From a bacterium (GTDB taxonomy: Bacteria; Patescibacteriota; Minisyncoccia; Phycocordibacterales; JAUSHB01): a DNA stretch of 64,000 nt. The translations under genes and the position numbers were made by a program. The stretch covers positions 12,675 through 76,674 of the forward strand of contig JAUSHB010000013.1 in the NCBI GenBank assembly GCA_030648955.1, read 5' to 3'. This document shows positions 3,748 to 32,520 of the stretch, one piece after another. Each line of letters begins with the position of its first letter. Position 1 is the first letter of the stretch. The notes beneath the pieces are model-generated. The model worked only from the letters and a program-made list of their open reading frames with translations. It made no database searches and had not been told where the DNA came from.

Positions 3748-4410
3748 CTAGACAATCAGTTTTTTTATCTTTTCAATCTGAGCAATGATCTGAAGAAATA
3801 ATTTTGTATTACAGACATAAATATCAAAAGTACCATACGGCAAACTATCTTTTTTATTCTTACTCGCAATACTCGGCTTCGAATACGTTTTGAAAAATTG
3901 TGAGCGCGGAATTCCTGAAACATGTGACCAATACCGCTCTGCGCTCTCAATATTGAGATGAGAGTGGATGTGGATATGGCCACGAAATTTTTTCTCCTCA
4001 ACCTTAAAAATCTCTCGAAAAAACCGCATCATTACCTTAATAACCGCGGGATCGCTATTTGAGATCCTTGCCGATCCTTTGTTTGTCTTTCCTCCTTCTC
4101 CCCAATATAAACATAACCCGATAAGATGTAAATCGTGGGTAGAAATATTTTTAATGTCTTTTTGCGCCAAAGTCGCTATGGCGTCCCTCTTTTCTTGTTC
4201 ATTGAGCAATCGTTTTTGGCGTCTTTTTTCGATTGCTTCGGATGAAAACCCTTTCCGTTTTAAAACACTCATCTGCTTTTTACTCAGCGTAATATTACGC
4301 ACCCACATACTCACACTCGCCTTTGAAACACTGGCGCTTCGAGCAATCTCTTTGATCGACATTCCTTCCTTACGCAACGCGATGACTTTTTGTTTTTCTA
4401 ATAATTTCAT
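3748..4410 (-). CDS. Hypothetical protein with N-terminal helix-turn-helix
   Basis: The N-terminus IALRKEGMSIKEIARSASVSKASVSMW is a transposase or sigma region-4 style HTH. The C-terminal ~150 aa have an unknown fold. The start was set at the MKLLEKQ Met. The gene lies next to tRNA-Val and its duplicated 3' end. Confidence 0.5.
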   Translation of the reverse strand: MKLLEKQKVIALRKEGMSIKEIARSASVSKASVSMWVRNITLSKKQMSVLKRKGFSSEAIEKRRQKRLLNEQEKRDAIATLAQKDIKNISTHDLHLIGLCLYWGEGGKTNKGSARISNSDPAVIKVMMRFFREIFKVEEKKFRGHIHIHSHLNIESAERYWSHVSGIPRSQFFKTYSKPSIASKNKKDSLPYGTFDIYVCNTKLFLQIIAQIEKIKKLIV

Positions 4411-4532
4411 ATATAGTGAACCACTAATACATATACTACATAAGATGTATTCTATCATCTGTATCGACTTTTACAAGTATTGAATTTATTTGAGAAATAC
4501 AGTATGATGCCTGTGTTCTTTATACCTTTGAC

Positions 4533-4608
4533 GGGCGATTAGCTCAGTTGGTAGAGCAGCGCATTTACACTGCGAAGGTCGGGGGTTCAAGCCCCTCATC
4601 GCCCACCA
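4533..4608 (+). tRNA. tRNA-Val (anticodon TAC), CCA encoded
   Basis: The cloverleaf has acceptor GGGCGAT/ATCGCCC, D-arm GCTC-AGTTGGTA-GAGC, anticodon loop TTTACAC and T-arm GGGGGTTCAAGCCCCTC, followed by ACCA. Pair 27-43 is a G·A mismatch. Confidence 0.8.
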
Positions 4609-4840
4609 TGTGAAAAATGTCCAACTTTTGTTGGGCATTTTTTGCATCATGCAAATGAGAAACGCGTAGCGTTTTGTAGGGACTTGAAAGCCGGAGCGTG
4701 GCGGCGCGAGGCGGGGTCGCGGAATTTTTCAACAGAAAAATATCCGTGACCAAGCCCCTCATCGCCCACAAAACATTAAATTCCGAAGCGATAGCTTTGG
4801 GTTTTTGATTTTGTGGATAGCAAGTAATCTCATTGTCTTT

Positions 4841-5653
4841 TTATTTTTCTTCAAAAGTTTTTTTAGGAATCACTTCGCGTATTGAAAAGTGCGCGATATC
4901 CAAACTCTTCCACCCATCGACACGAAACGTCGTTTCCCATCCTGCCCAAAGCGCGGCTTTGACATATTGGCCAGTAGAGACCCCCTCTATATCATTCCAT
5001 TCTGTATAAAGATGAAAATCGTTTCGGGGCGAGCCGTCCTCATTATAAGGATTAGTATCAAGATAGAGAAAGTTTCTTGTTCTTTTTTGTTGTTCTTCTA
5101 AAAAAGAAACGACTTTAACTGCGAGCCATTTGTTTTCTTGGATTGCATAATCAAATTTCCGGTTTATTGTGAGAAAGTCATAATCAGGATGATCTAACTC
5201 CTTGAATACTTTTGCTTTGAGATTTGCGTACGGGACCTGCATACCTATGCAGCTTGACCGAGGGTCGTGCGAGCCTCCATGAACACCTCCTCGAATGATC
5301 CATGAAAAGGAAGTGTGGGTTTTATTGAAATCATGAACCCGGAAATAAATGGTTGCTTCAAAATTCTCATTATCTTTTTCGGTGCCAATGTATCCGTGTT
5401 CGCTGGCGCCAGTACGCCATGTGTATTGTTGCGAGCCTGGTGCATGCATGCGCAAGCGGATTGTCAATCCATCTGGCTGGCCGTCAGCGTATGTAACTCT
5501 TTCTGCAACAACTTTATAATAAATGATGCCATTCTCCGTTTCTTTACCGACTATGGAACCACCGATTCCAAATCCTTCTTGTACTTGAGGATCTTCATCA
5601 AAAGACAATGTGAAGCTATTGCCCTCGGGGTTGTGTTTATAAAGATATATCAT
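4841..5653 (-). CDS. Hypothetical protein (270 aa)
   Basis: It is a long ORF with no recognisable signal peptide and no family I can assign. Confidence 0.45.
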   Translation of the reverse strand: MIYLYKHNPEGNSFTLSFDEDPQVQEGFGIGGSIVGKETENGIIYYKVVAERVTYADGQPDGLTIRLRMHAPGSQQYTWRTGASEHGYIGTEKDNENFEATIYFRVHDFNKTHTSFSWIIRGGVHGGSHDPRSSCIGMQVPYANLKAKVFKELDHPDYDFLTINRKFDYAIQENKWLAVKVVSFLEEQQKRTRNFLYLDTNPYNEDGSPRNDFHLYTEWNDIEGVSTGQYVKAALWAGWETTFRVDGWKSLDIAHFSIREVIPKKTFEEK

Positions 5654-6055
5654 TGAACTTATGATTATCTAAAAAATCCTACTTCAAATGAATTAAAATT
5701 TGGAAGAAGTTTTTAGGTAGTCCTGATGGGTTAGGTCCTTCGGTCATTAGAACCTCGCCCTGTATTATGTGTTTATTGTACCAAGCTCGAACCTATTTCC
5801 AAAATCGCTGATGTCGCACGCGCGAAGCGCGTCCCACCTTCTGGCTTTGAAAAAGCCGTTGAGTTCTGTGTTTATGCAGTATTCTTGAATTAGTCCGAAC
5901 GCATTTTTCCGGAAAATTCCCCCCGCGAAAATTCGGAAAGGCGGCGGAGCCACACCGCTGATTCAGCAGAATCACCTACTGGGTGACAATTTCAAGTTTT
6001 TTGACGGCATTCAATCCAAGAATTCGCAAAGCGAATACAAAATTATGAAGAAACT

Positions 6056-6616
6056 TTATTTCCCACTTTCAACCTTCTTTTTAGCAACACGATACTTCAT
6101 CCATTTTCTATTTGGATCAACTTCAAATGACACACCAAGCTCCAGATGTTCCTGTGAGATTTTGTGCATCAATTGGTATAAATCTTCCGGACTTTTCAAA
6201 TCGCCTGCGCTTACAATAAACGGGAGCCCGCCATCCATTCTTTTTTCGCGGTCAAGACTCCCATCTGGTTTAATTTGGAGAGCTTCCGAATACTCGCCAC
6301 TTTTTTTAATGCCGTCTTCAAACCATTTTGCCATCCAATTTCGGTTCTGTCGTGGCCATTCTTCGGCTCGTTGCGCTTTTTCCTCTGGTGTCATTTTCAC
6401 GTCCTTCTCTCGGTATTCCTGTCTCAAACACTCTCTTCCGGCTTCCTCTCCTTCTTCTCTTACTCGTGCGGTTTCAGAAGTTTCTCCTGGCCTAAACTCG
6501 AGACTTGGACCAACTTTTTTACCAAAAAGATTTCCTTTTTTCATAGTAAAACCCTCCCCTTTAATAGGTTCTTCTTTCTTGTTGGGAGGTTTTTCAAACG
6601 GATTTTCTATGCTCAT
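6056..6616 (-). CDS. Hypothetical charged protein (186 aa)
   Basis: The ORF is Lys/Glu-rich. The opposite-strand ORFs 6045-6632 and 6275-6628 have low complexity and are judged spurious. Confidence 0.4.
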   Translation of the reverse strand: MSIENPFEKPPNKKEEPIKGEGFTMKKGNLFGKKVGPSLEFRPGETSETARVREEGEEAGRECLRQEYREKDVKMTPEEKAQRAEEWPRQNRNWMAKWFEDGIKKSGEYSEALQIKPDGSLDREKRMDGGLPFIVSAGDLKSPEDLYQLMHKISQEHLELGVSFEVDPNRKWMKYRVAKKKVESGK

Positions 6617-6749
6617 AAATTTGTATGATTAAAAAATTTTCTTCCCCCAAAATTAAAATATGATTCGAGTCGATGTTTTTCTTTGGGTTCTTTTGAGGTT
6701 TTACTAGCCAACCTGTGCAATTATTGTAGCATATTTTCTTATTCGAATG

Positions 6750-7339
6750 CCCCTGGTAGGAATGTCCCACAGTTACTAAGCTCACTCAAAGCAAAGCTTC
6801 TCGCTCGATATCGAGCTCTTCGAGCGCAGGATCGACATGGTCACGAGTTACTAAGCATATTTCTTCGCTTTGCCTACCTGCCGGTAGGCAGGCTCGAAAT
6901 CTGCGTAAGTACACCACAAGAGTACTTCCAGTTTTCTAATTCGCTACGCTCATAAGAAAACTTTGGTCGCTCGCGAACCCCAGCTCGTGGCCTTGCGTGG
7001 TCGCAAGGCATCACTGTGCTTGCATAAAGTTAAAAAAGTGAAGCAGCGACCAAAATCTCTTGAGTGCAGCGATTAGAGATTTGAAGTACTCTTGTGGTGT
7101 TCACTTTTTCTTAACACTTTATGCCCTCGGCAGGATCGGTCACGAGTTACTAAGTGTTCTCGTCTGCTTTGCAGACTGCGAGCACTAAGTACTCTCGACC
7201 CCGACGGAGCGACAAGCACTCGCTTCGCCTGCCTACCGGCAGGCAGGCTCGTCTTGTATACCGCTTCCGTCCTTCGATTCCTGCCGAGGGCGATAAAAAT
7301 ATAATCACCCAATGCTTCGCATTGTTCTCGTTATTTTTA
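6750..7339. repeat. tRNA-3'-flanking GC-rich repeat array (two ~290-bp units, family A)
   Basis: GGTCACGAGTTACTAAG occurs at 6841 and 7139. The hairpin CCTGCCGGTAGGCAGGCTCG occurs at 6879 and 7224. TTTATGCCCTCGGCAGGA occurs at 7118 and 7337, copying the 3' end of the adjacent tRNA. 6752-6815 is the reverse complement of 20060-20125. Confidence 0.7.
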
Positions 7340-7411
7340 TGCCCTCGGCAGGAATCGAACCTGCATCTACGGCTTAGAAGTCCGCAGCACTATCCATTAT
7401 GCTACGAGGGC
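7340..7411 (-). tRNA. tRNA (probably Arg, anticodon TCT) with atypical enlarged anticodon loop
   Basis: The reverse complement has acceptor GCCCTCG/CGAGGGC, D-arm GCAT-AATGGATA-GTGC and T-arm GCAGGTTCGATTCCTGC. The anticodon stem pairs best as TGCGG/CCGTA around a 9-nt loop ACTTCTAAG, so the identity is uncertain. Confidence 0.55.
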
Positions 7412-7438
7412 AATTACAATTGATACACGCTACATGAT

Positions 7439-15239: not shown

Positions 15240-15629
15240 TTATTCTTGATTCTTCTTTTTATCCAAATAACTTTGCAAAATGATTGCCGCCGCGGATGCA
15301 TCAATCATCTCTCCCTTCCCTTGCAAATGTTCCGCGGCGGCGGATGTCATGAATTCCCGCTCAAAGTGAACTGGCAAACCCGTGACATCCTCTAACTCCT
15401 TTTTAAACGGAGTTATCTTCTCCATAATAACATTTGGTTTCATTTTGTAATCAAGAGATTCACCGAGAACGATTTCGGCAATATGTTCTTTATCGCAGAG
15501 TTCTTTGATGGCAGGAATAAGTTTTTTGTCGTTGGGGAGAACCGTACGCGGGAAAGCCATACCGCCTTCACTATCTCCAGTCGCGATTCCTACGCGTTTT
15601 GCCCCATAATCAATGCCAAGAAATTTCAT
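15240..15629 (-). CDS. ruvX: Holliday-junction resolvase-like protein YqgF/RuvX
   Basis: The sequence MKFLGIDYGAKRVGIATGD ... AAAIILQSYLD is typical YqgF. Confidence 0.8.
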   Translation of the reverse strand: MKFLGIDYGAKRVGIATGDSEGGMAFPRTVLPNDKKLIPAIKELCDKEHIAEIVLGESLDYKMKPNVIMEKITPFKKELEDVTGLPVHFEREFMTSAAAEHLQGKGEMIDASAAAIILQSYLDKKKNQE

Positions 15630-17060: not shown

Positions 17061-17147
17061 GGAGGAGTGGCAGAGTGGTCGAATGCACCGGTCTTGAAAA
17101 CCGGAATCTGCGAAAGCGGATCGTGAGTTCGAATCTCACCTCCTCCG
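17061..17147 (+). tRNA. tRNA-Ser (anticodon TGA), type II
   Basis: It has acceptor GGAGGAG/CTCCTCC, anticodon stem CCGGT/ACCGG around loop CTTGAAA, a long variable arm and a GTGAGTTCGAATCTCAC T-arm. Confidence 0.8.
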
Positions 17148-17289
17148 CACTGTGGTAAAAAGCGTTTATTAAAAATGTAACCAGTGAGCATGCGAAAACA
17201 CGGAACATGCGCAAGACCTTTTGAGATATTTTTGAGCCGATAAAATCGGTTAAGAAAATATCCAAAAGATGTACTGATTCTGTAAGAAT

Positions 17290-17343
17290 CGAGAAAAATA
17301 GGAGTCTGGGCAACCGGACCGTGAGTTCGAATCTCATCCCCCG
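17290..17343 (+). repeat. Partial duplicate of a tRNA 3' half (pseudo-tRNA fragment)
   Basis: CCGTGAGTTCGAATCTCATCCCCCG copies the T-arm of the upstream tRNA-Ser (17121-17139) but has a different acceptor strand. No matching 5' half is present within ~150 bp upstream of the fragment. Confidence 0.6.
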
Positions 17344-17366
17344 CAATTTTTCCCAATATTGTCTTC

Positions 17367-18385: not shown

Positions 18386-18635
18386 GTTTCTCTTCTATCA
18401 GAAAACGTAACCGCATTGTCGATTTATAAAAATCTTATCGTTTATATTCTTGTTTTTCTTTTTTTAGAAACTCTTTTATTTGTTCGTATAAAAAATATCC
18501 CTGCGGTTTTTCCACTTAAACTTGCGGTTTCTCCTATTGCCATGAGCCTTGTGCTTATGGTCTTCGCGGTATCGTATGGTTTTTGATTTTTTCAATTACA
18601 TACCGTTTTTCATTCAGACCCCCCATTTCTTCTTA

Positions 18636-18662
18636 ACAAAAAAACCGCATAAGCGGTTTTTT
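18636..18662. terminator. Bidirectional rho-independent terminator
   Basis: AAAAAACCGCATAAGCGGTTTTTTT is a GC stem flanked by A and T runs, sitting between convergent genes. Confidence 0.7.
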
Positions 18663-18680
18663 TGTTAAGAAGAATATCTT

Positions 18681-19888: not shown

Positions 19889-19960
19889 CTCCTTGTCGTT
19901 CAATGGATAGGATGCCTCCCTCCGAAGGAGGCGATGCAGGTTCGATTCCTGCCGAGGAGA
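19889..19960 (+). tRNA. tRNA-Arg (anticodon CCG)
   Basis: It has acceptor CTCCTTG/CGAGGAG (one G·U pair), anticodon stem CCTCC/GGAGG around loop CTCCGAA, and T-arm GCAGGTTCGATTCCTGC. Confidence 0.7.
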
Positions 19961-20344
19961 TTTTGAATAAAATGAAAAATCTCCGAGAGGAGTCAACTGC
20001 TTGACTCCGTGCAGGAATCGAACGGCGGAGTATGTTGCGAAGCAACAGCGAGCCGCGTCCAGCAGTACTTAGTGAACGAGAAGCTTTGCTTTGAGTGAGC
20101 TTAGTAACTGCGGGACATTCCTGCCGAGGGGACTATGTAGCGAAGCGGAATATTCTACTCGGAGAAAGTAAATTTATTTGCTTTCGGCGGGAATCGAACA
20201 GCGGAGCGATATTTTGTCAGCAGACAAAATCGCGAGCTGGTGCCCAGCCCGAGCCGAATGGCGGCGAGGTGAGAGGCGCGGGAGATTCCTACCTCTTTGT
20301 TGCCAGTAATCGAAATTACATAGGTCGAACCTATGTAATTTCGA
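19961..20344. repeat. tRNA-3'-flanking GC-rich repeat region (family B)
   Basis: It contains inverted T-arm copies (GCAGGAATCGAACGGCGGAG and GGCGGGAATCGAACAGCGGAG). A 65-bp block at 20060-20125 is the reverse complement of 6752-6815. It ends with a 20-bp perfect palindrome, AATCGAAATTACATAGGTCGAACCTATGTAATTTCGATT. Confidence 0.7.
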
Positions 20345-21127
20345 TTACTGTTTGAGTCCCAGCCCCTTGCGGATTAAATACCAATTGATCGCCATAAGAA
20401 TTACTGCCATCGCAAAAAGAATTCCCGTAGACATGTAGAGCGAAACGTCACTGATACCCAAAAATCCATAGCGAAATCCGTTTACCAGATAAAAAAGTGG
20501 GTTACTGTAGGTGATCGTTTGCCACCACTCCGGAAGCGCGTGAACGGAATAGAAGACGCCCCCGAGATACACAAGCGGGGTAAGTACAAATGTGGGAACG
20601 ATGTTTATTCCGTCTATGGATTTTGCGTAGACACCGTTTACCAGTCCTGCAAGGGAAAAGATGAGTGCGGTCAAAAGTCCGTATCCCAGCATAATGAGAA
20701 TATTATGGGTCGCCAGGTGAAGCCCCGTAAAGAAAAGAGACACCATAAGAACGAGGATGCCGACAATGGTTCCCCGTACCACCCCGCCCCCGATAAACCC
20801 GGCAATAAGAAGCCATGGCGGCGTAGGCGAAACGAGTATTTCGTCGATAGAGCGTCCGAAAAACTTTGAAGTAAAGAATACGAAGGATGTGTTGGAGTAA
20901 GAGCTAGTCACAATGGAAAGCATAACAAGCCCCGGCACAACAAATGTCATGTAGGAAATGCCCTGCATGTCTCCAATCCGCGAGCCGAGCACCGTACCGA
21001 AGATAAGGAAGTAGAGAACGGCTGTTATGACGGAGGGAAGAAATGTTTGTATCCAAACACGAAACATCCGCACAACATCCTTCCGGATTATGGTGTAAAA
21101 CGATATCCAGAGTCCAAATGAGTTCAT
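20345..21127 (-). CDS. ABC-2 type transporter permease
   Basis: It has 6 TM helices and the ABC-2 family pattern, and lies immediately downstream of the ATPase. Confidence 0.75.
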   Translation of the reverse strand: MNSFGLWISFYTIIRKDVVRMFRVWIQTFLPSVITAVLYFLIFGTVLGSRIGDMQGISYMTFVVPGLVMLSIVTSSYSNTSFVFFTSKFFGRSIDEILVSPTPPWLLIAGFIGGGVVRGTIVGILVLMVSLFFTGLHLATHNILIMLGYGLLTALIFSLAGLVNGVYAKSIDGINIVPTFVLTPLVYLGGVFYSVHALPEWWQTITYSNPLFYLVNGFRYGFLGISDVSLYMSTGILFAMAVILMAINWYLIRKGLGLKQ

Positions 21128-26093: not shown

Positions 26094-26165
26094 GCGCCCG
26101 TAGTTCAACGGATAGAATGCAAGCTTGCGGAGCTTGTGATCGAGGTTCGATTCCTCGCGGGCGCA
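26094..26165 (+). tRNA. tRNA-Arg (anticodon GCG as read)
   Basis: It has acceptor GCGCCCG/CGGGCGC, anticodon stem CAAGC/GCTTG around loop TTGCGGA, and T-arm CGAGGTTCGATTCCTCG. Confidence 0.7.
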
Positions 26166-26169
26166 TAAA

Positions 26170-26295
26170 GTGAAGGAAAAGAGAACTGCTTCGCTTTTCC
26201 GAACATTTATGCGAACCGGAGCGATGTTTCGCCAGCAGGCGAAACCGCGAGGTGGGGTCGCGGAAATCTAACTGCGACGGCAGTTAGATTATCTG
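26170..26295. repeat. tRNA-3'-flanking structured GC-rich element
   Basis: CCGGAGCG...GCGAGGTGGGGTCGCGGAAAT is shared with 4692-4735 downstream of tRNA-Val. It also carries the hairpin CTAACTGCGACGGCAGTTAG. Confidence 0.55.
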
Positions 26296-26332
26296 TGACC
26301 ATACAAATTCTGCACTCAAAGAGTTCGACATT

Positions 26333-32279: not shown

Positions 32280-32447
32280 ATAGCCCGCCGGGCAGTCTCG
32301 GTCACGAGTTACTAATTCGCTACGCTCATAAGTACTCTCGACCCCGCCTCGTTCCCGCAAAGCGGGATACTGCGGCTTTCGATTCCTGACGAAACACAAG
32401 CAGTTGTGTTTCTCCGCGCGGACACTCACTCACTTCGTTCATTCGTG
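32280..32447. repeat. tRNA-3'-flanking GC-rich repeat (family A/C)
   Basis: It contains GGTCACGAGTTACTAATTCGCTACGCTCATAAGTACTCTCGACCCCG, the same modules seen at 6841/6936/7185, and it abuts the 3' end of tRNA-Lys. Confidence 0.7.
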
Positions 32448-32520
32448 TCCGCCCGGCAGGAATCGAACCTGCGACCGTTTGCTTAAAAGGCAACTGCTCT
32501 ACCGACTGAGCTACGGGCGG
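32448..32520 (-). tRNA. tRNA-Lys (anticodon TTT)
   Basis: The reverse complement has acceptor CCGCCCG/CGGGCGG, D-arm GCTC-AGTCGGTA-GAGC, anticodon loop CTTTTAA and T-arm GCAGGTTCGATTCCTGC. Pair 27-43 is a G·A mismatch. Confidence 0.8.

What the first reader, a model, noticed from the sequence alone, without database searches (positions are those of the whole stretch)
6750..7411. Family of GC-rich, hairpin-rich repeats fused to the 3' side of tRNA genes (loci at 6750-7339, 19961-20344, 32280-32447)
Three tRNA genes are each followed on their 3' side by 170-600 bp of unusually GC-rich sequence built from shared modules. These are GGTCACGAGTTACTAAG (6841, 7139, 32309), CTAATTCGCTACGCTCATAAG (6936, 32324), GTACTCTCGACCCCG (7190, 32346), the hairpin CCTGCCGGTAGGCAGGCTCG (6879, 7224), a 65-bp block at 6752-6815 that is the reverse complement of 20060-20125, and multiple degenerate copies of the tRNA T-arm/acceptor 3' half (GGCAGGAATCGAAC). 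Locus A is a tandem of two ~290-bp units. The orientation relative to the tRNA is the same at all loci. This could be a lineage-specific tRNA-linked MITE/SINE-like element, serial attachment-site scars, or co-transcribed small RNAs.
Basis: seen in the sequence. Interest (0 to 1): 0.65.

Follow-up and report, generated by a model that had tools for sequence, protein, structure and literature searches.

The report
Structured RNA-like modules trailing Patescibacteria tRNAs
Most tRNA genes in this candidate-phyla-radiation bacterium are followed by a conserved folded module of about 100 bases, framed by an inverted and a direct copy of the tRNA's own 3' end; the family is widespread in the phylum and was not found in Rfam or in the papers searched.

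Summary
Five of the seven tRNA genes in the window (Val-tac, Arg-tct, Arg-ccg, Arg-gcg, Lys-ttt) are followed on the tRNA strand by a conserved two-helix core (P2, P3). A sixth (Ser-tga) carries a different core in a similar setting.

A covariance model of the core finds 47 copies in Patescibacteria genomes and 121 in metagenome contigs. It finds none in the non-Patescibacteria pattern hits and none in the 39 viral pattern hits. Rfam gives nothing even at E<=10.

- **Structure:** 97.6% of cells are paired, 12 of 15 pairs show double compensatory changes, and a G.U wobble is conserved on the sense strand.
- **Location:** about 75% of copies lie within 400 nt downstream of a tRNA or tmRNA (28 anticodons). 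Four genomes have one just after the ftsZ stop codon.
- **Arms:** the core is bracketed by an inverted copy of the host gene's 3' end, ending sharply at T54, and often by a direct copy.

Cores at different tRNAs are old and diverged, so this is not a recent MITE burst or ordinary integrase scars.

Best reading (about 0.45): a new family of co-transcribed, structured trailer RNA modules whose host-derived repeats cause tandem amplification. The function is unknown. A hairpin-mediated mobile element remains a serious rival.

The parts
7339..7412 (-). tRNA-Arg(tct), host gene of locus A; its last ~20 nt plus trailer are the sequence X that the arms copy
   Evidence: ARAGORN; Rfam tRNA 66.8 bits
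7273..7300 (-). A1 5' arm (X'): reverse complement of the tRNA-Arg T loop, T-stem 3' strand, acceptor 3' strand and 7 nt of trailer
   Evidence: I11 (26 nt, 88% complementary to 7334-7359)
7203..7272 (-). A1 P2 region, enlarged, with the GCCUGCCUGCCGGUAGGCAGGC hairpin
   Evidence: fold; coordinates
7138..7202 (-). A1 P3 helix: GGGGUCGAGAGUACUUAG...CUUAGUAACUCGUGACC
   Evidence: CM R1 hit 7138-7230, 57.4 bits, E=4e-11
7117..7137 (-). A1 3' arm: direct copy of the tRNA-Arg 3' end (CCTGCCGAGGGCATAAA)
   Evidence: (score 18, X from -14 to +3)
6839..7116 (-). A2, a rearranged composite unit: a long rod-like hairpin (6909-7104) plus the 3' half of a P3 (6839-6908). It shares modules with A1 and with locus C
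   Evidence: D9, D15, D16; weak CM hit, E=0.13
6744..6838 (-). A3, a partial unit: a P3-like hairpin plus a diverged 3' arm (ATTCCTACCAGGGGCA). 57 nt are 91% identical to the matching part of B1
   Evidence: I1; short-read contigs break inside this block
19889..19960 (+). tRNA-Arg(ccg), host gene of locus B
19980..20022 (+). B1 5' arm, split by a hairpin with loop AACUGCUU (19989-20008) at the junction of the acceptor and T-stem complements
20023..20116 (+). B1 core (P2 + P3)
   Evidence: CM R1 63.2 bits, E=2e-12
20117..20133 (+). B1 3' arm (ATTCCTGCCGAGGGGAC), a direct copy of the tRNA 3' end
20180..20295 (+). B2, a second diverged unit: 5' arm GCTTTCGGCGGGAATCGAA, a typical P2, a replaced P3 and a short 3' arm
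   Evidence: (weak CM hit, E=0.2)
32447..32520 (-). tRNA-Lys(ttt), host gene of locus C
32378..32423 (-). C 5' arm, with an inserted AACUGCUU-loop hairpin (32392-32411)
32300..32377 (-). C core (P2 + minimal P3)
   Evidence: CM R1 64.4 bits, E=1e-12
32283..32299 (-). C 3' arm (GAGACTGCCCGGCGGGC), a diverged direct copy of the tRNA-Lys 3' end
4679..4769 (+). Unit E: short 5' arm (4679-4688), core (4689-4751) and 3' arm (4752-4769), which is a perfect 18-nt copy of tRNA-Val 4589-4606. A terminator-like hairpin follows at 4782-4801
   Evidence: (43.9 bits, E=5e-8)
26161..26300 (+). Unit F, the trailer-type variant. X is the last 5 nt of the tRNA plus trailer (26161-26172). Then come the AACUGCUU hairpin (26173-26201), X' (26202-26213) and the core (26214-26300). 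There is no 3' arm
   Evidence: (48.4 bits, E=5e-9)

Best explanation
These are copies of an apparently undescribed, Patescibacteria-wide family of structured modules that act as single-stranded nucleic acid, most likely RNA. They sit in the 3' trailers of tRNA genes, tmRNA genes and a few protein genes such as ftsZ.

Core (about 60-125 nt):
- P2 is a 3-bp base helix, a bulged G, a tandem G.A/A.G motif (GGAG / CGAG) and a variable hairpin.
- P3 reads GGUCG-A-GAGUACUUAG ... CUUAGUA(A)CUC-G-UGACC, with an invariant bulged A and a conserved G.U.

Flanks:
- Upstream of the core lies X', the reverse complement of the host gene's last 20-30 nt. For tRNAs this runs from T54 through the discriminator into the trailer.
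- An optional hairpin with loop ACUGCU often sits exactly at the junction of the acceptor and T-stem complements.
- Downstream there is often a direct copy of the same host segment.

Proposed working:
- The module is transcribed with the tRNA by read-through.
- X' can pair either with the tRNA's own 3' half (P0), or with the distal copy (P1). P1 closes the module with a helix that mimics the acceptor/T-stem minihelix.
- The host-derived direct repeats make the loci recombine, which gives tandem arrays and module exchange.

Shown here: the conserved fold, the strand, the association with tRNA 3' ends, the anatomy of the arms, the age of the copies and their taxonomic range.

Inferred only: transcription, processing (for example by RNase P, RNase Z or RNase III) and any cellular role (trailer processing or turnover, or a protein-binding small RNA).
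For: Fold and strand:
- In the hand-made seed alignment, 9 of 15 pairs show compensatory changes.
- In 121 metagenome copies, 97.6% of cells are paired, 12 of 15 pairs carry double changes (183 cells) and 0 of 500 shuffles reach the observed values. Slid controls give only 14-57% paired.
- A G.U wobble is kept in 97 of 117 sequences, and one pair shows the series GC 64 / AU 24 / GU 20. This fits folding of the sense strand only.
- Sense-strand folds are more stable than antisense folds for the 6 segments that span a whole unit or locus; A2 alone slightly favours antisense.

Distribution:
- There are 5 strong copies in the window, each 48-109 nt after a tRNA on its strand.
- There are 47 copies in genome loci. 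Most carry Patescibacteria labels, three carry uninformative 'bacterium' labels, and L083 is labelled Flavobacteriaceae and looks mis-binned.
- 80 of 110 metagenome copies lie within 400 nt after a tRNA or tmRNA, covering 28 anticodons.
- Copies also follow tmRNA (L085), an intron-containing tRNA (L172) and ftsZ in four genomes.

Age: cores at different tRNAs of one genome are about as diverged as cores between genomes. This fits long residence rather than recent spread.

Co-transcription is plausible: no terminator was found between tRNA and core in 54 of 78 cases, and no promoter-like site lies between them in the window.

Arms:
- X' reaches T54 in 41 of 42 alignments but rarely goes further.
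- P0 is present in 60% of units and the direct copy in 44%, against shuffled controls.
- P1 mismatches favour G.U over A.C by 16 to 6.

Not previously catalogued: no Rfam match even at E<=10, and no description in five literature searches.
Against: - No expression data are available, so transcription of the modules is not shown.
- About 31% of first units have a terminator-like hairpin between the tRNA and the core. The finder was crude and missed the one at locus E.
- P0 mismatches are strand-symmetric (G.U 24, A.C 25). This is what DNA-level copying predicts, not selection on an RNA helix.
- P1 is detectable in only about 29% of units. It decays at the ftsZ loci, where X' follows ftsZ rather than the distal copy. 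A minihelix-like closing stem therefore cannot be essential.
- The arms never co-vary away from the tRNA sequence (0 of 47 variable positions).
- Predicted minimum-energy folds of the co-transcripts disrupt the tRNA in favour of P0. That would be harmful unless kinetics or processing prevent it.
- GNA triloops of the GCGAAGC type are common in the hairpins. From my own knowledge, this motif is especially stable in DNA.
- The alignment used for the large covariation count was fitted to the model, and it was retrieved with a pattern that fixes part of P3.
Confidence: 0.45

Rival explanations
1. A non-autonomous mobile DNA element that inserts through a folded hairpin. In its free single-stranded form, X - loop - X' would form a stem that copies the duplex of the target gene's 3' end. 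A host tyrosine recombinase acting in trans would exchange one strand inside the stem. The known parallels are CTX phage attP(+) with XerCD, or integron attC with IntI. The conserved core would then be the cis-acting recognition structure.
For: - A single-strand exchange in the stem of a hairpin predicts exactly the observed order: X (rebuilt target) - loop - X' - body - X (displaced copy). This is my own derivation.
- The order holds for tRNA, tmRNA and ftsZ hosts.
- The junction is sharp at the palindromic TCGA of the T loop, which from my own knowledge is a classical crossover sublocation for tRNA-targeting integrases.
- tRNA and tmRNA genes are classical integration targets.
- Tandem arrays repeat X + trailer + X' at 100% identity (L022, L050, L229).
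- P0 mismatches are strand-symmetric.
- Other core types occupy the same frame.
- GNA triloops are common in the hairpins.
Against: - Cores are old and as diverged within genomes as between them, so there is no sign of recent transposition.
- No polymorphic empty site was found; the only near-identical loci were duplicate assemblies.
- The arms vary and the centre is conserved, the reverse of attC or attP(+).
- How arms would be re-made for more than 28 different targets is unexplained.
- No recombinase gene lies next to the window loci.
- None of the 39 viral-contig pattern hits matched the model.
- Units lie on both strands within one replichore-like stretch. Their orientation follows the tRNA rather than replication.
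Confidence: 0.25
2. Ordinary decayed attachment-site scars. Serial integration and loss of integrase-encoding islands or prophages at tRNA 3' ends left direct repeats and short remnants.
For: - Direct repeats of the tRNA 3' end begin in the T loop.
- The tRNA-Ser and L050 tRNA-Val loci show plain duplicated 3' halves.
- L083 has about 600-nt inserts containing a small ORF between repeats.
- Two unannotated ORFs sit between the convergent arrays at 4841-6616. They are absent in syntenic L050.
Against: - The intervals hold a conserved fold with strong covariation found across the phylum. Random remnants would not look like this.
- The inverted copy X' is not explained.
- The same architecture occurs after ftsZ in four genomes.
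- No integrase is nearby.
- No copy was confirmed among the viral-contig pattern hits.
Confidence: 0.1
3. A neutral by-product of replication errors. Template switching at terminator hairpins and unequal crossing-over would extend palindromes and duplicate tRNA ends, and the core would have no function of its own.
For: - P0 mismatches are strand-symmetric.
- X' follows the evolving ftsZ sequence, as repeated re-copying would produce.
- Long perfect palindromes occur elsewhere in the window (I15 and I16).
- Terminators that extend into the tRNA end exist without a core (L244).
- Some tandem duplicates are 100% identical.
Against: - It cannot explain a core kept across classes of the phylum with compensatory changes and invariant unpaired bases.
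- It cannot explain the core's fixed position and strand.
- Such elements persist in very compact genomes.
Confidence: 0.08

Closest known systems
tRNA/tmRNA-gene attachment sites of integrase-type genomic islands and their miniature derivatives (CIME-like remnants)
   Same: - A direct repeat of the tRNA 3' end starts in the T loop.
- tmRNA genes are also used as hosts.
- Units build up in tandem next to the tRNA.
   Different: - The interval is only 100-280 nt and holds no integrase or cargo.
- It holds a conserved covarying fold and an additional inverted copy of the att-like segment.
- It also occurs after ftsZ.
Folded single-strand recombination substrates: CTX phage attP(+) hairpin (XerCD/dif) and integron attC
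   Same: - A hairpin stem imitates a double-stranded target.
- The predicted integrated order X - loop - X' - body - X matches what is seen.
- Structure is conserved on one strand only.
   Different: - Here the stem sequence varies with the host gene and the centre is conserved, which is the opposite of attC and attP(+).
- No recombinase link has been shown.
- The body is only about 100 nt.
Bacterial intergenic repeats: REP/BIME, and MITEs such as Correia, RUP and ERIC
   Same: - Small, G+C-rich and hairpin-forming.
- Many copies per genome, located between or after genes, and sometimes clustered.
   Different: - The terminal repeats are not a family constant; they copy the neighbouring gene.
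- There is no short target-site duplication.
- Copies are old and diverged.
- The fold is complex and specific to one strand.
- Copies are tied to tRNA 3' ends.
tRNA-like small RNAs released by tRNA-processing enzymes (mascRNA/menRNA type) and engineered tRNA scaffolds
   Same: - When P1 forms, the closing helix is an acceptor plus T-stem mimic.
- An extra hairpin sits where the D and anticodon arms would branch.
- The module lies in the same transcript direction as a real tRNA.
   Different: - The helix often continues past the acceptor end.
- P1 is absent in most copies.
- There is no evidence of cleavage or CCA addition.
- The organisms are bacterial.
Large ornate bacterial RNAs often found near tRNAs (ROOL, GOLLD)
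   Same: - Structured non-coding elements next to tRNA genes.
- Function unknown.
   Different: - No Rfam match to them.
- The modules here are much smaller and have a different fold.
- They carry host-derived arms.

Membership tests
Any Rfam 15 family (including tRNA-like, group I/II introns, ribozymes, ROOL, GOLLD, Y RNA/YrlA) | Match to the family covariance model | tested here: not met
   Only the tRNAs pass at gathering thresholds. At E<=10, locus A gives only chance microRNA-like hits, and locus B and the best-scoring relative L037 give none.
Structured non-coding nucleic-acid family (generic) | Conserved secondary structure supported by compensatory changes, on one strand | tested here: met
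   9 of 15 pairs; 12 of 15 pairs, 183 double-change cells, 0 of 500 shuffles, slid controls far lower, and a conserved G.U.
MITE | Terminal inverted repeats shared by all copies of the family | tested here: not met
   The arms differ at every locus and match the adjacent tRNA, tmRNA or ftsZ.
MITE | Short target-site duplication, and high similarity among copies from recent transposition | tested here: not met
   The flanking direct repeat is a 17-75-nt copy of the host gene end. Copies in the same genome at different tRNAs have median identity 0.63, against a background of 0.61.
SINE-like retroposon | tRNA-derived head carrying a promoter, reverse-transcriptase dependence, 3' tail | tested here: not met
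   Only the 3' 20 nt of the tRNA are copied, and in both orientations. There is no D or anticodon part and no tail. No reverse transcriptase lies near the window loci.
Integrase att-site scar at a tRNA gene | Direct repeat of the tRNA 3' end beginning in the T loop or anticodon loop | tested here: met
   The 3' arm begins at about C56/G57 and runs to the discriminator or beyond. At locus E the copy is a perfect 18 nt.
Integrase att-site scar at a tRNA gene | Integrase gene or element cargo, or their remnants, between the repeats | tested here: not met
   The intervals of 100-280 nt hold the conserved core. The 10 ORFs scanned near the window tRNA loci, including those beside the E, A, B, C and F units, give no integrase match in Pfam. 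There are 0 model hits in the 39 viral loci.
Hairpin-substrate recombination site (attC / CTX attP(+) type) | Integrated order: target copy - loop - inverted copy - body - target copy | tested here: met
   Seen at tRNA, tmRNA and ftsZ hosts. P0 is present in 60% of 147 units.
Hairpin-substrate recombination site (attC / CTX attP(+) type) | Dedicated or host recombinase acting on the folded strand; presence/absence polymorphism | not testable with these tools
   No closely related loci differing by a unit were found.
tRNA-like processed small RNA (minihelix-framed) | Closing helix that mimics the acceptor and T stem, ending at the discriminator | tested here: inconclusive
   P1 is present in A1, B1, C and E and in about 29% of all units. 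Complementarity dips at positions 70-72. However, the helix often continues into the trailer, and P1 is absent in the trailer-type and ftsZ units.
tRNA-like processed small RNA (minihelix-framed) | Defined ends made by RNase P and RNase Z; added CCA | not testable with these tools
   No transcript data are available.
Group I intron in Patescibacteria tRNA genes (PMC13011429) | Intron inside the anticodon loop that matches the group I model | tested here: not met
   The units lie after complete tRNAs and have no Intron_gpI match. Real group I introns were detected elsewhere (L172, L238).

The most novel reading that the evidence does not exclude
The triple arrangement X - X' - core - X may be a functional strand-exchange device, or the footprint of a new insertion mechanism.

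(a) As RNA, the tRNA body could use either its own 3' half or the distal copy while X' captures the other. This would make a co-transcriptional switch that couples tRNA folding or 3' processing to release or destruction of the trailer module.

(b) As DNA, a roughly 100-nt structured element without any gene would integrate through a hairpin that imitates the 3' end of whatever gene it targets. That would be a programmable, CTX/attC-like pathway using host recombinases, not described before for tRNA genes.
Probability: 0.25. Interest if true: 0.85.

Novelty: new variant of a known kind. Interest (0 to 1): 0.7.

Why it matters
Patescibacteria have very small, tightly packed genomes, yet most tRNA genes seen here carry 100-600 nt of this extra structured sequence. 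A module conserved across classes of the phylum and placed after tRNAs, tmRNA and ftsZ suggests an unrecognised step in how these organisms make, check or dispose of stable RNA transcripts. Alternatively, it points to a new way for a gene-less element to insert by copying its target.

In practical terms:
- The family explains assembly breaks at tRNA loci.
- It offers a marker for Patescibacteria contigs.
- It gives a defined RNA target for transcriptomics and for pull-downs in the few cultivable Saccharibacteria.

Tried and rejected
- **Rfam:** the whole window at gathering thresholds, and loci A, B and L037 at E<=10, gave nothing but tRNAs.
- **Group I intron idea:** raised by a paper on Patescibacteria tRNA introns and rejected. 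The units follow complete tRNAs and do not match the intron model.
- **Viral origin:** 39 pattern hits in IMG/VR, none confirmed by the model.
- **Presence/absence polymorphism:** exact-protein look-ups returned only contigs from the source sample (SRR13727527), 100% identical to the window. All-against-all megablast of the unit-bearing loci found only duplicate assemblies.
- **Weak model hit at 15288-15424:** rejected, because it lies inside a coding region that is YqgF/RuvX-like by my own reading of the sequence.
- **Recent intragenomic spread:** not seen in pairwise core identities.
- **Compensatory evolution between the two arms, independent of the tRNA:** not seen.
- **Promoter between tRNA and unit:** none found by the consensus scan.
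- **My first terminator finder:** undercounted bidirectional terminators and was replaced. The second is still crude.
- **Hammerhead-like or K-turn readings of the junctions:** considered by eye only. The P2 motif has a one-base bulge, not the three-base bulge of a standard K-turn, so no membership is claimed.
- **Literature:** five full-text searches found no description of the family.
Full report
**What is in the window.** ARAGORN finds seven tRNA genes. The gene content (pilM/N/O-like genes, ribosomal protein L19, RuvA) and the closest syntenic relative place the window in Patescibacteria. That relative, L050, is a Parcubacteria MAG with the same Leu-gag / Val-tac / Arg-tct order. Short-read contigs from Logan sample SRR13727527 are 100% identical to the window. 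They end at 20101 and 6774, inside the block shared by two of the repeat loci, so the repeats are real features of the genome.

**Checking the observation.**
- The 17-mer CTTAGTAACTCGTGACC occurs three times against 0.04 expected.
- T-arm-like strings occur 11 times against 1.8 expected.
- The '65-bp' inverted block is 57 nt at 91%.
- The loci have 49-56% G+C against 41.8% for the window.

**Anatomy.** I read the loci on the tRNA strand. The 'degenerate T-arm copies' turn out to be ordered.
- Each unit begins with the reverse complement of the neighbouring tRNA's T loop, T-stem 3' strand, acceptor 3' strand and first trailer bases. I call this the 5' arm, X'.
- Each unit ends with a direct copy of the same tRNA segment, the 3' arm.
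- Between the arms lie two helices. P2 has a three-pair base, a bulged G, a tandem G.A/A.G motif (GGAG/CGAG) and a variable hairpin.
- Several units have an extra hairpin with loop A-ACUGCU-U, 13-14 nt before the core. That is exactly where the acceptor complement meets the T-stem complement.
- Folds of the tRNA strand are more stable than antisense folds for the 6 segments that span a whole unit or locus. A2 alone slightly favours the antisense strand.

**The family.** A genome-wide pattern scan returned mostly chance hits plus a set of Patescibacteria loci with the same architecture next to tRNAs of many kinds.
- A 14-sequence alignment gave a consensus fold with compensatory changes in 9 of 15 pairs. 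I built covariance model R1 from it.
- With filters off, R1 finds five strong copies in the window.
A2 and B2 give weak hits.
- R1 finds 47 copies in the genome loci. Most sit in MAGs labelled Parcubacteria, Paceibacteria, Yonath-, Kaiser- or Nomurabacteria, Minisyncoccia, Saccharibacteria or Patescibacteria group. Three sit in MAGs labelled only 'bacterium', and one contig labelled Flavobacteriaceae (L083) looks mis-binned.
- It finds none in the roughly 90 chance loci from other phyla.
- A viral-contig scan gave 39 pattern hits and no model hit.
- Rfam 15 has no match, even at E<=10, for loci A and B and the best-scoring relative. Five literature searches found no description.

**Structure support.** I counted base pairs on the 121-copy alignment.
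- 97.6% of cells form standard pairs.
- 12 of 15 pairs have double changes, in 183 cells.
- 0 of 500 shuffles reach any observed measure.
- Sliding the partners drops pairing to 14-57%.
- One pair is G.U in 97 of 117 sequences, and another shows GC 64 / AU 24 / GU 20. This means the fold is read on the sense strand.
- A bulged A in P3 is invariant.

Two caveats apply. The alignment was fitted to the model, and the retrieval pattern fixes GTACTTA and TTAGTAACT. The hand-built seed alignment shows the same compensation, and window units E and F lack those strings yet keep the fold.

**Context.**
- 35 of the 47 genome copies, and all five window copies, lie downstream of a tRNA on the same strand, nearly all within 350 nt.
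- In metagenomes, 80 of 110 copies not at a contig edge lie within 400 nt after a tRNA or tmRNA. These cover 28 anticodons plus tmRNA.
- Other copies follow a tmRNA (L085) and a tRNA that contains a group I intron (L172).
- In four independent genomes a copy follows the stop codon of ftsZ.
- Among 160 tRNAs in unit-bearing loci, 100 have an R1-type core downstream. This figure is biased by how the loci were chosen. Many of the rest have diverged or different cores in the same frame.

**The arms.**
- Across 147 units, the 5' arm pairs with an upstream segment (P0) in 60%. A direct downstream copy is found in 44%, and pairing between the two arms (P1) in about 29%.
- For tRNA hosts the inverted copy has a sharp inner edge. 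41 of 42 alignments reach T54, 18 reach G53 and 6 go further. Complementarity dips at acceptor positions 70-72.
- The direct copy starts at about C56/G57.
- In a second variant (window unit F, L016, L059 and others), X' matches only the last few tRNA bases plus trailer, and there is no 3' arm.
- At ftsZ, the last roughly 30 coding bases, a hairpin over the stop codon, their complement, the core and a decayed copy of the coding end follow in that order.
- At those ftsZ loci X' follows each genome's own ftsZ sequence. The decayed copies, in contrast, resemble each other between genomes.
- P0 mismatches are strand-symmetric (G.U 24, A.C 25), whereas P1 mismatches lean to G.U (16 to 6).
- The arms never co-vary away from the tRNA: of 565 compared positions, 518 are identical in all three copies and 0 show arm-arm agreement against the tRNA.

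**Dynamics.**
- Some arrays repeat tRNA end + trailer + X' + core at 100% identity (L022, L050, L229).
- Within the window, modules are shared between loci: A3/B1 share 57 nt at 91%, C/A2 share 21 nt, and A1/A2 share a hairpin.
- Overall, however, cores at different tRNAs of one genome are no more alike (median 0.63) than cores from different genomes (0.61).
- Most copies are therefore old residents with occasional local duplication and exchange, not a recently spreading repeat.

**Transcription.**
- No promoter-like site lies between the tRNAs and the units in the window. A promoter-like site precedes tRNA-Lys, and a terminator-like hairpin follows unit E.
- With a crude finder, 54 of 78 first units have no terminator between tRNA and core. 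Co-transcription is therefore plausible but unproven.
- Minimum-energy folds of tRNA+unit transcripts pair the tRNA's 3' half with X', and in four of the five window loci they pair the tRNA's 5' acceptor strand with the distal copy.
- If the RNA equilibrated it would therefore disrupt the tRNA. Either kinetics and processing prevent this, or the alternative pairing is the point of the device.

**Interpretation.** The core is a genuine, conserved, strand-specific structure. That fact, together with its age and its persistence in very compact genomes, argues for function, most simply as RNA carried in the trailers of highly expressed stable RNAs. I rate this reading at about 0.45.

The arms behave differently from the core. 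They look like DNA-level copies of the host gene's end that are kept identical to it. The order X - loop - X' - body - X is exactly what a single-strand exchange inside a target-mimicking hairpin would leave behind, as with CTX phage or integron attC. I therefore keep a hairpin-mediated mobile element as a serious rival (0.25).

The remaining readings explain less:
- Plain integrase scars (0.10) do not account for the conserved fold or for X'.
- Neutral palindrome growth (0.08) does not account for the conserved fold either.
- MITE and SINE membership fail their defining tests.

No integrase, transposase or reverse transcriptase matched among the 10 ORFs scanned near the window's tRNA loci.

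**Verdict.** The finding is real and more extensive than reported. It belongs to a large family restricted to Patescibacteria that was not found in Rfam or in the papers searched. Its mechanism is open. The decisive data would be transcript ends and strain-level gain or loss of units.

Noticed in passing
window 17149-17345 (+), after tRNA-Ser(tga) 17061-17148: A different conserved core ('type II', 17218-17290: CTTTTGAGATATTTT...AAAATATCCAAAAGATGTACTGATTCTGTAAGAATC) is followed by an 81%-identical copy of the tRNA-Ser 3' half (17294-17345). The same core motif occurs in 9 other fetched Patescibacteria loci, for example after tRNA-Val in L060 and after tRNA-Leu in L256.
   Followed up: partly
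window 18627-18674 and 20304-20350: Two perfect palindromes with 22-nt arms and 3-4-nt loops (I15 and I16). The second lies directly after unit B2. They are longer than usual terminators and may reflect a general tendency of this genome to extend palindromes.
   Followed up: no
window 4841-6616 (-): Two ORFs (270 and 186 aa) with no Pfam match lie between the convergent tRNA-Val and tRNA-Arg(tct) arrays. In the syntenic relative L050 the two tRNAs are only about 440 nt apart, so this may be a small inserted island.
   Followed up: partly
window 3748-4458 (-): An ORF of 236 aa just upstream of tRNA-Val has an N-terminal helix-turn-helix, with only sub-threshold Pfam matches. By eye it has a GLCLYWGEGG motif reminiscent of LAGLIDADG-type proteins.
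   Followed up: no
window 48836-52476: Several diverged direct repeats: 178 nt at 89% (49613/52299), 82 nt at 77% (48836/49799) and 41 nt at 83% (49100/50068). They are reported and look like duplicated genes or intergenic blocks.
   Followed up: no
L083 (JBLHQB010000003.1, labelled Patiriisocius sp.): This contig carries five units. It also has repeated inserts of about 600 nt, each ending in a copy of the tRNA-Trp 3' end plus trailer. The Flavobacteriaceae label is probably a binning error.
   Followed up: partly
L172 4331-4534 and L238 11149-11418: Group I introns were detected in Patescibacteria loci. In L172 the intron-containing tRNA, which ARAGORN missed, is followed by a unit (compare PMC13011429).
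   Followed up: partly
L231 560-700 (-) and L229 12100-13500 (+): Arrays of partial units. L231 repeats only the P3 3' strand plus the 3' arm after ftsZ. L229 has tandem units at 100% identity whose repeat boundaries differ between two tRNAs.
   Followed up: partly
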